IMG/VR virus record: IMGVR_UViG_3300032123_000052
Coordinates: 144,086-208,085 of that record
Length of the DNA stretch: 64,000 nucleotides
Reading direction: 5' to 3' (one strand)
Source: a virus
Lineage: Duplodnaviria; Caudoviricetes
This document shows positions 19,505-20,500 of this stretch, piece after piece (position 1 is the first letter of the stretch; each line of letters begins with the position of its first letter). The notes under the pieces were generated by a model that saw nothing but the letters and a program-made list of their open reading frames with translations, searched no databases and had not been told where the DNA came from. The position numbers were made by a program, and so were the translations under genes.

Positions 19505-19580
19505 GCGCGTGAGGGTGCTCCGTCGGAGCATTATGTCGCATCGTGGCGACACATACGTTAAATGGTAAACGCTAAACAAC
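19505..19580 (-). ncRNA. tracrRNA-like RNA, copy A (trailer side of array)
   Basis: 76-nt near-duplicate of 20425-20500; CCAUUU and CCCUCACGCGC segments complementary to the repeat; two hairpins; followed by U-run. Confidence 0.75.
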
Positions 19581-19614
19581 ATTTGGAACTATTTTTAATT
19601 TATTTAGGAAAAAA

Positions 19615-20314
19615 AATAAGCCTTTTGCGTGCGCGGAAGAAACAATCGTTCTAAAATAATAAACGGATTATACCACCCATTTCCCTCGCGTGCGCGAAAG
19701 AAACGAGATAAAAAACAGCCTGGTGATGTTTGCCTCCCCATTTCCCTCGCGCGCGAGAAAGAAACTGATACCGTAGTGCTATAAGGCATAACGCCTCCCC
19801 ATTTCCCTCGCGCGCGCGGAAGAAACCCATGGCCAGTGAGAGTTTGACATTTTTCCTTCCCATTTCCCTCGCGCGCGCGGAAGAAACTAGAGAGAGAATT
19901 GTTAGATAACTGATAAGAACCCATTTCCCTCGCGCGCGCGGAAGAAACAGATCGTCAATGGCAATAGGGTTACCTTCACCCCCATTTCCCTCGCGCGCGC
20001 GGAAGAAACCGTCACCAAATATTTTGCATAGTCTTTCGAAACCCATTTCCCTCGCGCGCGCGGAAGAAACGCCAGCAGGTGCCCACGACCTTGGATCCCC
20101 AGCCCATTTCCCTCGCGCGCGCGGAAGAAACTTTTCAATTTTCTCCTTATTCATTGTCAACCCCCCATTTCCCTCGCGCGCGCGGAAGAAACCGAAAAAA
20201 TTAGGAGCCTCGCTGACCTCCTCACCCATTTCCCTCGCGCGCGCGGAAGAAACAGTGGAAGCGAATTTGCGGGCAATTGGTGCTGCCCATTTCCCTCGCG
20301 CGTGCGGAAGAAAC
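19615..20314 (-). CRISPR. CRISPR array: 11 full 29-nt repeats plus 1 degenerate terminal repeat, 11 spacers all 32 nt
   Basis: Repeat (minus) GTTTCTTCCGCGCGCGCGAGGGAAATGGG; + strand starts 19676, 19737, 19798, 19859, 19920, 19981, 20042, 20103, 20164, 20225, 20286; exact 61-nt period; degeneration at the left end implies minus-strand transcription. Confidence 0.98.
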
Positions 20315-20424
20315 TGCTGGCAATTGGCCCGTCGTCACTAAACAAACAAAATACGATCTGCATTCTTAACTATAGAATTTGTATATAAAGCCTGAAATTG
20401 CATAAATTATTATTTTTAAAAAAG
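20315..20424 (-). promoter_or_regulatory. CRISPR leader
   Basis: AT-rich 110-nt segment between tracr-like copy B and the first repeat. Confidence 0.55.
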
Positions 20425-20500
20425 GCGCACGAGGGGGAACCGTCGGTTCCTTATGCTGCATCGTGGCAGCACATACGTTAAATGGTAAACGCTAACAACT
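20425..20500 (-). ncRNA. tracrRNA-like RNA, copy B (11 nt after effector stop)
   Basis: Anti-repeat CCCUCGUGCGC (11 bp to repeat nt 12-22) and loop CCAUUU (6 bp to repeat nt 23-28); stems covary with copy A; UUUUUU follows. Confidence 0.8.

What the first reader, a model, noticed from the sequence alone, without database searches (positions are those of the whole stretch)
19505..20500. Two covarying copies of a 76-nt tracr/omega-like RNA bracket the array
Seen: 19505-19580 and 20425-20500 (offset 920 nt) differ at 12 positions; 10 are compensatory changes in two hairpins (TGCTC/GAGCA vs GGAAC/GTTCC; TCG/CGA vs CTG/CAG). On the minus strand the loop of a CGUU/AACG stem carries CCAUUU, complementary to repeat nt 23-28 (AAAUGG, next to the spacer). 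The 3' end carries CCCUCGUGCGC (copy B, 11 bp) or CCCUCACGCGC (copy A, one mismatch), complementary to repeat nt 12-22, followed by a U-run. Established: Cas12f tracrRNA pairs with the repeat through two separate duplexes, one pseudoknot-like next to the guide, as in TnpB omegaRNA. Inference: both copies are under structural selection. Duplication could raise scaffold dose for a multi-guide array, or reflect an omegaRNA-to-tracr/crRNA splitting intermediate.
Basis: partly seen in the sequence, partly recalled or inferred. Interest (0 to 1): 0.85.

Follow-up and report, generated by a model that had tools for sequence, protein, structure and literature searches.

The report
Paired tracrRNA genes, phage dead-Cas12f locus
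A 208-kb phage carries a miniature CRISPR system whose Cas12f-like protein has lost its DNA-cutting site, and two diverged copies of the helper RNA (tracrRNA) that links it to the CRISPR guides sit on either side of the guide array; relatives show that both copies have been kept by selection.

Summary
On the minus strand, cores 20496-20420 (copy B) and 19576-19500 (copy A) each fold into three hairpins plus a single-stranded tail. They differ by 12 substitutions and one edge indel. Ten substitutions are five fully compensated base pairs; none breaks a pair.

It is a tracrRNA with a split anti-repeat. The tail pairs with repeat nt 12-22 and the loop of hairpin 1 with nt 23-28. The same RNA lies beside homologues of the 442-aa neighbouring protein in at least 13 other metagenomic loci. 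There the stems covary (98.6% of cells paired, 15 of 19 pairs changed on both sides), and the loop and tail follow each locus's own repeat.

The protein is Cas12f-like (profile E 2.5e-27; fold E 1e-13). It has no RuvC triad and ends before the zinc-finger/RuvC-III part, so it is most likely an RNA-guided DNA binder.

New points:
- Each copy is closed by a 21-25 bp helix built from non-homologous flanks.
- Copy A lies directly upstream of a 79-aa zinc-ribbon ORF that is fused to the effector in one homologue.
- Relatives keep the A type (L022) and the B type (L001, L003) in the same places.
- Other family loci also hold two tracr copies.

No expression data exist. The omegaRNA-splitting idea has no support. 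This scan noted the locus only in this genome.

The parts
20512..21840 (-). Effector gene (P0001, 442 aa). Cas12f-like fold. RuvC-I Asp is replaced (VEF) and RuvC-II Glu is replaced (ILNLP). The protein ends just after the YKxE motif, so the zinc-finger (TNB) part and RuvC-III are absent.
   Evidence: No Pfam, PHROG, NCBIfam or PDB hit as a single sequence. Family profile against PDB: OsCas12f 2.5e-27, AsCas12f about 1e-21, dCas12f 4e-18. AF2 model pLDDT 90. Foldseek top hits are Cas12f structures at E about 1e-13. Alignments.
20392..20525 (-). tracrRNA copy B including its closing helix P1 (arms 20525-20505 and 20412-20392). Core 20496-20420: hairpin 1 at 20492-20475 (loop CCAUUU at 20485-20480), hairpin 2 at 20473-20452 (loop CACGAU), hairpin 3 at 20450-20436, anti-repeat tail at 20435-20424, then a U-run. 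The 5' arm of P1 overlaps the last codons and the stop codon of the effector.
   Evidence: I3; P1 -24.6 kcal/mol, z -6.8.
20315..20391 (-). AT-rich leader between tracr B and the first repeat.
   Evidence: Repeat degeneration at the low-coordinate end places the leader here. No sigma-70-like promoter was scored in it.
19615..20314 (-). CRISPR array: 12 repeats of 29 nt (minus-strand consensus begins GTTTCTTCC and ends GAGGGAAATGGG) and 11 spacers of 32 nt. The last repeat (19615-19643) is degenerate in exactly the part that pairs with the tracr.
19480..19615 (-). tracrRNA copy A including its closing helix P1 (arms 19615-19591 and 19504-19480). Core 19576-19500: hairpin 1 at 19572-19555 (loop at 19565-19560), hairpin 2 at 19553-19532, hairpin 3 at 19530-19516, tail at 19515-19504. 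The 3' arm of P1 contains the Shine-Dalgarno sequence of the next ORF and reaches the first base of its ATG.
   Evidence: I2; z -4.9; P1 -20.8 kcal/mol, z -5.3. The orthologue in L022 at 756-830 has the same arms.
19241..19480 (-). 79-aa zinc-ribbon ORF (P0153). It is homologous to the C-terminal domain that is fused to the effector in family member P0014, so it is probably a split-off effector domain or subunit.
   Evidence: BLASTP 44% identity over 62 aa, E 1e-16. The only other homologue, P0154, again follows an array and a tracr in L022 and L023.

Best explanation
The two 76-77-nt elements are paralogous genes for the tracrRNA of a phage-borne, adaptation-less, miniature type V CRISPR system whose effector is a truncated, RuvC-dead Cas12f-like protein.

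Mechanism, all inferred unless marked as shown. The locus is transcribed on the minus strand in this order: effector, tracr B, leader, array, tracr A, zinc-ribbon ORF. Each tracr folds as a self-contained module of three hairpins, closed by a long helix P1 made from its flanks. Its single-stranded 3' tail pairs with repeat nt 12-22 (the long repeat/anti-repeat duplex). The loop of hairpin 1 pairs with the adjoining nt 23-28, right next to the guide (the short duplex, pseudoknot-like). This is the arrangement known for Cas12f and Cas12b guide RNAs. The effector binds this scaffold, probably through the invariant loops and junctions. Because it lacks a nuclease site, it would bind the DNA matched by the 32-nt guide and block transcription of host or rival-phage genes.

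Shown: the sequence anatomy, the covariation, the complementarity and the protein fold. Inferred: transcription, processing, protein binding and repression.

Both paralogues are kept by selection. The B type always lies just behind the effector stop codon, and the A type lies between the array and the zinc-ribbon ORF. The most likely reason is that each transcription or processing unit carries its own tracr supply. P1 may insulate the module inside a long transcript and offer a site for a host double-strand RNase. In copy A it also hides the ribosome-binding site of the zinc-ribbon ORF.
For: 1. A against B: all 10 stem differences are compensated. Loops and junctions are identical apart from the first core base. 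G.U pairs occur only on the minus strand.
2. A model built from 4 close sequences finds the RNA, with filters off, in L007 (E 4.7e-5), L012 (1e-3), L008-10 (0.016) and L011 (0.02), always beside the effector or the array.
3. The widened model finds new cases: L014 (2.7e-7), L015 (3.8e-6 and 0.05), L002 (two at 0.002), L018 (5e-7), L019/L020 (2e-14), L021 (8e-10) and L022/L023 (2e-24).
4. On 8 sequences 98.6% of cells are paired and 15 of 19 pairs changed on both sides. The covariation score is 0.885 against 0.23 in shuffles and about 0.1 in slid controls. Independent MFE folds give the same architecture.
5. The hairpin-1 loop is complementary to positions -7 to -2 of the locus's own repeat in 12 loci (own mean 5.8 against cross mean 3.9), and the tail pairs with the bases just upstream.
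6. In L015 two tracrs each match their own downstream array: CCAUCA with UGAUGG, and CCAUUA with UAAUGG.
7. In L002, L012 and L022 the repeats have shrunk to the 6-13 nt that pair with the tracr.
8. Paralogue conservation: the L001 and L003 copies group with B by sequence, while L022 groups with A and shares its P1 arms and the downstream ORF.
9. P1 is significant for both copies although their flanks are unrelated.
10. The effector is Cas12f-like and nuclease-dead. The phage has no Cas1.
11. Four of 11 spacers carry a Shine-Dalgarno sequence plus a start codon in guide sense and none in antisense, against a 6% background (p 0.003; the motif was chosen after seeing the spacers).
Against: There is no expression evidence of any kind; only DNA runs from marine sediment hold the locus. 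No protospacer was found, so the target and the repression model are inferred. No promoter or terminator was scored for either copy. The tail of copy A has an internal A.C mismatch to the repeat, so it may pair less well than B. The A-type and B-type orthologues come from different short contigs, so no second genome has yet been seen with both copies on one molecule. The closing helix is absent or weak in several distant loci (L008, L012, L015), so it is not a family-wide requirement. The alignment used for the pair counts was fitted to the model.
Confidence: 0.75

Rival explanations
1. Only copy B is the working tracrRNA. Copy A is kept for another reason, chiefly as a structured 5' leader that controls translation or stability of the zinc-ribbon ORF, or it is a slowly decaying duplicate.
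For: The 3' arm of A's closing helix covers the Shine-Dalgarno sequence of ORF79 and reaches its start codon, and L022 conserves this. A's tail has a mismatch to the repeat. Across the family the usual place of the tracr is directly behind the effector.
Against: A keeps the hairpin-1 loop, the hairpin-2 and hairpin-3 loops and all junctions identical to B. Its tail still makes 10 of 11 pairs. In L022 the A-type tail changes together with that locus's repeat (CUCUC with GAGAG), which a mere leader would not need.
Confidence: 0.13
2. The two copies act at the DNA level, as direct repeats that mark the ends of a mobile or recombining array cassette. Their hairpins would work as single-stranded DNA structures, as in IS200/IS605 ends.
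For: They are direct repeats that bracket the array, and each is flanked by inverted repeats. The effector descends from TnpB-type transposon proteins.
Against: Most related loci have a single copy with no partner. The G.U pairs make the fold strand-specific, and the plus strand folds worse. The loop and tail follow the repeat sequence. No extra copies occur elsewhere in the genome.
Confidence: 0.04
3. The locus is a frozen intermediate in the splitting of a single omegaRNA into a tracrRNA and a crRNA.
For: Copy B lies where omegaRNA scaffolds lie, overlapping the 3' end of the effector ORF on the same strand. In L008 hairpin 1 overlaps the ORF end.
Against: Neither copy is followed by a guide. 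The system has a full 29/32 array. The effector belongs to a large derived clade of 246 clusters that has already lost its nuclease.
Confidence: 0.05

Closest known systems
Type V-F (Cas12f/Cas14) tracrRNA, e.g. the AsCas12f and Un1Cas12f1 guide RNAs
   Same: A structured RNA encoded beside the effector. The repeat is bound by two separate anti-repeat segments: a long duplex, and a 5-7 bp short duplex next to the guide that forms a pseudoknot (PMC11246509). The effector has the same fold.
   Different: No sequence or Rfam match. The architecture is three hairpins, in this clade closed by a long helix. There are two diverged paralogues per locus. The effector is nuclease-dead and truncated.
dCas12f-sigmaE RNA-guided transcription systems, and the CRISPR-array-associated dCas12f cluster noted in the same paper (Hoffmann et al., Nature 2026, PMC13472631)
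   Same: C-terminally truncated, RuvC-inactive Cas12f relatives that are presumed to regulate transcription. That paper notes a cluster of dCas12f next to CRISPR arrays with covarying RNAs upstream of the arrays.
   Different: Those systems are chromosomal and from Bacteroidota. The sigmaE-linked ones use a chimeric single guide, and no tracrRNA was found for them. Here the carrier is a phage, no sigma70_r2 gene is present, and there is a tracr plus a full array. Whether this family is the array-linked cluster of that paper could not be checked. By profile score it is nearer to active OsCas12f (2.5e-27) than to Fta dCas12f (4e-18).
TldR (TnpB-like nuclease-dead repressors)
   Same: Dead, C-terminally truncated TnpB-type proteins that act as RNA-guided repressors, some of them on prophages (10.1101/2023.11.30.569447; the details are from my own knowledge).
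   Different: TldRs use one omegaRNA-like guide and no CRISPR array or tracrRNA.
TnpB omegaRNA
   Same: The scaffold starts at or overlaps the 3' end of the protein gene on the same strand, and a pseudoknot lies next to the guide.
   Different: An omegaRNA is one molecule with its own 3' guide. Here the scaffold and the guides are separate, and the scaffold is duplicated.
Cas12m and Cas12k (type V effectors that naturally do not cleave DNA)
   Same: Interference or targeting by DNA binding without cleavage (PMC10442227).
   Different: They are much larger proteins. Cas12m needs no tracrRNA, and Cas12k works with transposition proteins.

Membership tests
tracrRNA of the Cas12f/Cas12b type (long plus short anti-repeat) | Non-coding RNA gene next to the effector gene and the array | tested here: met
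   B lies 11 nt behind the effector stop codon and A directly behind the array. The same position is seen in at least 13 related loci.
tracrRNA of the Cas12f/Cas12b type (long plus short anti-repeat) | Long anti-repeat complementary to the repeat | tested here: met
   The tail pairs with repeat nt 12-22: 11 bp in B, 10 of 11 in A, and 11 perfect pairs in L003. It changes with the repeat in other loci.
tracrRNA of the Cas12f/Cas12b type (long plus short anti-repeat) | Short 5-7 bp anti-repeat next to the guide, forming a pseudoknot | tested here: met
   A 6-nt stretch of the hairpin-1 loop is complementary to repeat positions -7 to -2 and follows the repeat in 12 loci. The pseudoknot itself is predicted, not observed.
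tracrRNA of the Cas12f/Cas12b type (long plus short anti-repeat) | Expressed, and bound by the effector together with crRNA | not testable with these tools
   No RNA run holds the locus.
Cas12f (type V-F effector) | TnpB/Cas12f fold (WED, REC, RuvC) | tested here: met
   Profile against PDB Cas12f E 2.5e-27. Foldseek E about 1e-13 to AsCas12f and OsCas12f with a model of pLDDT 90.
Cas12f (type V-F effector) | RuvC D-E-D catalytic triad | tested here: not met
   The RuvC-I position is E, V, S, T, G or A across the family. The RuvC-II position is L, G, Q, V, N, D, K or I. RuvC-III is absent because the protein ends.
Cas12f (type V-F effector) | Zinc-finger TNB domain inside RuvC | tested here: not met
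   Absent from P0001. A zinc ribbon is encoded separately (P0153) and is fused only in P0014; other CxxC tails occur in P0012 and P0060.
dCas12f-sigmaE RNA-guided transcription system | Operon with an ECF sigma factor that carries a C-terminal extension | tested here: not met
   No Sigma70_r2 match in the whole phage genome. The upstream 168-aa ORF has no recognisable family.
dCas12f-sigmaE RNA-guided transcription system | Chimeric single guide RNA, no tracrRNA | tested here: not met
   The scaffold is separate from the 12-repeat array.
IS200/IS605 transposon ends | TnpA or TnpB gene between subterminal hairpins, with copies elsewhere | tested here: not met
   Between the copies there is only the array. 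No further copies occur in the genome. The fold is specific to the RNA strand.

The most novel reading that the evidence does not exclude
Jumbo and other phages carry a so far uncharacterised natural CRISPR-interference system. It consists of a split, nuclease-dead Cas12f-like effector (a core protein plus a separately encoded zinc-ribbon module) served by two long-maintained tracrRNA paralogues with different jobs. One is coupled to the effector message. The other is coupled to the array and, through its closing helix, to translation of the zinc-ribbon subunit. The arrays evolve without Cas1-Cas2 and can shrink to 6-13-nt repeats that keep only the part that pairs with the tracr.
Probability: 0.25. 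Interest if true: 0.85.

Novelty: new variant of a known kind. Interest (0 to 1): 0.68.

Why it matters
If the RNAs are expressed as predicted, the locus gives a defined guide-RNA architecture for a large, mostly phage-borne clade of dead Cas12f-like proteins: 246 clusters at 50% identity, each about 370-480 aa. That makes the clade directly testable as a natural and very compact programmable repressor. It would also show that phages use multiplexed RNA-guided gene silencing rather than cleavage. The paired, diverged tracr genes and the arrays reduced to the tracr-pairing core are natural experiments that show which parts of the repeat and scaffold are needed. The link between copy A and a split-off zinc-ribbon domain suggests a two-part effector. 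None of this is categorically new: tracrRNAs with split anti-repeats and dead Cas12f or TnpB regulators are already known.

Tried and rejected
- Rfam at gathering threshold finds no family at either copy.
- A single-sequence AF2 model of the effector was useless, pLDDT 31.
- Protospacer searches found nothing: own genome, longest match 13 nt; the whole array against 50,697 phage records, only a 27-nt hit at E 0.7; two spacers in viral contigs and one in genome contigs, no exact match.
- The exact tracr core is absent from viral contigs.
- No RNA holder is listed among the sequencing runs, only two DNA holders from marine sediment.
- The promoter and terminator scan found nothing on the minus strand in the leader or after either copy.
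- The search for related loci failed with the broad alignment, and for genome contigs, because no stretch was conserved enough.
- The upstream 168-aa ORF was checked as a possible sigma factor. It has no Pfam, PHROG or NCBIfam hit, and the Atlas gave nothing usable.
- Complex prediction of the effector with the zinc-ribbon ORF returned no verdict.
- Orphan repeats or a second array behind copy A: none found.
- Similarity of the zinc ribbon to the ORF behind the L008 array is too weak to call, E 0.15.
- Several contig look-ups returned no DNA.

Full report
**Where it lies.** The window is bases 144086-208085 of a 208,085-bp IMG/VR virus record that CheckV rates complete. The DNA is held only by marine-sediment metagenome runs. 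Window 19615-20314 holds a CRISPR array of 12 repeats of 29 nt with 32-nt spacers. The degenerate repeats are at the low-coordinate end, so the leader is at 20315-20391 and the array is read on the minus strand. That is the same strand as the 442-aa ORF at 20512-21840.

**The observation.** A 77-nt direct repeat lies at 19499-19575 and 20419-20495.
- On the minus strand both copies fold into hairpin 1 (5 bp, 8-nt loop), hairpin 2 (8 bp, loop CACGAU), hairpin 3 (6 bp, loop GAC) and a single-stranded tail followed by a U-run.
- Ten substitutions form five two-sided compensated pairs. None is uncompensated, and two lie in the tail.
- In simulation, none of 12,442 substitution sets with 10 or more stem hits kept all 19 pairs.
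- With the two close relatives added, all cells pair and 6 pairs show two-sided changes.
- G.U pairs exist only on the minus strand, and the plus strand folds worse. This points to an RNA, not a DNA structure.
- The hairpin-1 loop CCAUUU is complementary to repeat nt 23-28 and the tail to nt 12-22, so together they cover 17 adjoining nucleotides of the repeat.

**The neighbouring protein.** P0001 has no hit in Pfam, PHROGs, NCBIfam or PDB sequences on its own.
- A full HMMER scan with a 4-sequence profile finds 246 cluster representatives, mostly 360-480 aa.
- A 91-sequence profile hits solved Cas12f structures: OsCas12f 2.5e-27, SpCas12f1 1.8e-22, AsCas12f about 1e-21, dCas12f 4e-18.
- The AF2 model built with that alignment has pLDDT 90. 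Foldseek ranks Cas12f structures first at E about 1e-13, then TnpB and other Cas12 proteins.
- The RuvC-I Asp and RuvC-II Glu positions are not conserved (VEF and ILNLP in P0001).
- Nearly all members end right after the YKxE motif, before the zinc-finger and RuvC-III parts.
- The phage has no Cas1, no Sigma70_r2 and no RNase III.
- The effector is therefore a truncated, nuclease-dead Cas12f-like protein.
- Neighbouring genes in related contigs are phage genes such as Mu-type portal and phiTE_072, and three homologues lie on IMG/VR contigs.

**The RNA across the family.**
- The close relatives L001 (effector 79% identical) and L003 (67%) have the B-type RNA right behind the stop codon, followed by the array.
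- A covariance model built only from window A, window B, L001 and L003 was run without filters. It finds the RNA in L007, L012, L008-10 and L011, exactly beside the effector or the arrays.
- A second model built from these eight sequences finds new cases in L014, L015 (two), L002 (two), L013, L018, L019/L020, L021 and L022/L023.
- On the eight-sequence alignment 98.6% of cells pair and 15 of 19 pairs have two-sided changes. The covariation score is 0.885 against 0.23 in shuffles and about 0.1 for slid partners. The alignment is model-fitted, but independent MFE folds of each sequence give the same architecture.
- The loop of hairpin 2 keeps the consensus C(A/U)(C/U)GA(U/C) in most loci while its stem changes. 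That pattern fits a protein contact.

**Co-variation with the repeat.**
- In 12 loci with different repeats, the hairpin-1 loop carries the complement of positions -7 to -2 of that locus's own repeat. Examples are CCUUCA with UGAAGG, CCCGAA with UUCGGG, CCACAU with AUGUGG and CCCACG with CGUGGG.
- The own-locus mean score is 5.8 against 3.9 for cross-locus pairs. The tail pairs with the bases just upstream.
- In L015 two tracrs each precede their own array and match it: CCAUCA with UGAUGG and CCAUUA with UAAUGG.
- In L002, L012 and L022 the repeats have shrunk to 6-13 nt, which is the part that pairs with the tracr.
- This two-part pairing is the long plus short repeat/anti-repeat arrangement described for Cas12b, Cas12f1, Cas12g and Cas12l (PMC11246509).

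1. Each copy is enclosed by a long helix made from its flanks: 21 bp for B (-24.6 kcal/mol, z -6.8) and about 25 bp for A (-20.8 kcal/mol, z -5.3). Only 2.9% of random places in this genome reach -20.
   - The flanks of A and B are unrelated in sequence, so the helix has been kept twice.
   - It is also significant in L001, L003 and L011, but weak or absent in L008, L012 and L015.
   - B's 5' arm is the end of the effector ORF. A's 3' arm holds the Shine-Dalgarno sequence of the next ORF and reaches the first base of its ATG.
2. That next ORF (P0153, 79 aa, zinc ribbon) is 44% identical over 62 aa (E 1e-16) to the C-terminal domain of family member P0014.
   - In the P0014 locus the order is fused effector, tracr, array.
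   - In the window the tracr-array-tracr block therefore separates two parts that are one protein elsewhere.
3. The only other homologue of P0153 (P0154, 76% identical) lies on L022 and L023. L022 comes from the same sample as L006, which carries an effector fragment 83% identical to P0001.
   - There a degenerate array is followed by a tracr (E 2e-24) and then by the zinc-ribbon ORF.
   - That tracr is of the A type, with the same P1 arms and the same junction. It has further compensated changes, and its tail (CUCUC) follows its own repeat (GAGAG).
   - L001 and L003 carry the B type. Both paralogues are thus conserved in their own places, and the duplication is older than the split of these phages.

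**Function.**
- Nothing shows expression: no RNA run holds the locus and no promoter or terminator was scored.
- No protospacer was found.
- Four of 11 spacers contain a Shine-Dalgarno sequence plus a start codon in guide sense and none in antisense, against 6% in random 32-mers of the phage (p 0.003). The motif was defined after seeing the spacers.
- This fits guides aimed at gene starts, with the guide pairing to the template strand.
- Together with the dead nuclease site, it makes RNA-guided repression the best reading. That reading is an inference.

**Why two copies.** In most related loci that reach past the effector stop, the order is effector, tracr, array. Extra copies occur in the window, L015 and L002; in L007 the one tracr found lies between two arrays. 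Dose, separate transcription units, and control of the zinc-ribbon ORF through A's closing helix are all compatible with the data. None is tested. The omegaRNA-splitting-intermediate idea gains nothing from the data: no guide follows either copy, and the clade is already derived.

**Comparison with the literature.**
- Hoffmann et al. (PMC13472631) describe dead, truncated Cas12f relatives linked to sigmaE that use single guides and for which no tracrRNA was found. They mention in passing a cluster beside CRISPR arrays with covarying upstream RNAs.
- I could not establish whether the present family is that cluster.
- I found no paper on a phage-borne version, paired tracr genes, or arrays reduced to the tracr-pairing core.
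- Earlier notes of this scan cover only this same genome.

**Verdict.** It is a new variant of a known kind. Confidence is 0.75 that both copies are working tracrRNA genes.

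Noticed in passing
window 34943-36673 (-): The same phage also carries an IscB-type gene (500 aa; RRXRR and HNH domains) with its HEARO/omegaRNA just upstream at 36469-36673 (Rfam 113.7 bits). One phage genome thus holds two unrelated RNA-guided systems.
   Followed up: partly
window 43258-43656 (-): A full-length tmRNA gene (Rfam 118.7 bits, E 8.7e-46) on the phage. 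ARAGORN reported no tRNA or tmRNA gene in the window.
   Followed up: no
L002 640-1400 and 2950-3700; L012 4230-5000; L022 1-700: Arrays next to family effectors have repeats of only 6-13 nt and irregular spacers of about 10-45 nt. Only the part of the repeat that pairs with the tracr is kept.
   Followed up: partly
L015 1160-1236 and 1437-1517: Two tracr copies in tandem modules. Each is followed by its own array with a different repeat ending (UGAUGG or UAAUGG), and each has the matching hairpin-1 loop.
   Followed up: yes
L013 4175-4228 and 4502-4556; tracr at 511-590: A 54-nt piece of the effector's 3' end is duplicated on either side of a 5-repeat array. The tracr, whose tail makes a perfect 11-bp match to the repeat, lies 2.4 kb upstream of the effector.
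   Followed up: partly
window 19615-20314: The 29-nt repeat and 32-nt spacer geometry, and a repeat with an internal GC-rich palindrome, resemble type I-E arrays, yet the phage has no Cas1. How spacers are gained is open; host adaptation proteins might be borrowed.
   Followed up: partly
window 20512-20535 (-): The last residues of the effector (QIETEV plus V or A) are conserved in P0001-P0003, although the tail before them varies. The codons form the 5' arm of tracr B's closing helix, so RNA structure may constrain the protein end.
   Followed up: no
window 15943-16785 (-): A 280-aa RlaP-type nucleotidyltransferase (RNA-repair polymerase-beta family, Pfam E 4e-69) lies about 3 kb downstream of the locus on the same strand.
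   Followed up: no
L018 99-524 and 3184-3380: An HTH_3/HTH_19 gene lies directly upstream of a family effector, and two tRNA-like T-arm repeats lie downstream of its array.
   Followed up: no
L002 7154-7702 (-): A sigma-70 family gene (r2 and r4 domains) lies about 4 kb from a 28%-identical family effector. No such gene exists in the window's phage.
   Followed up: no
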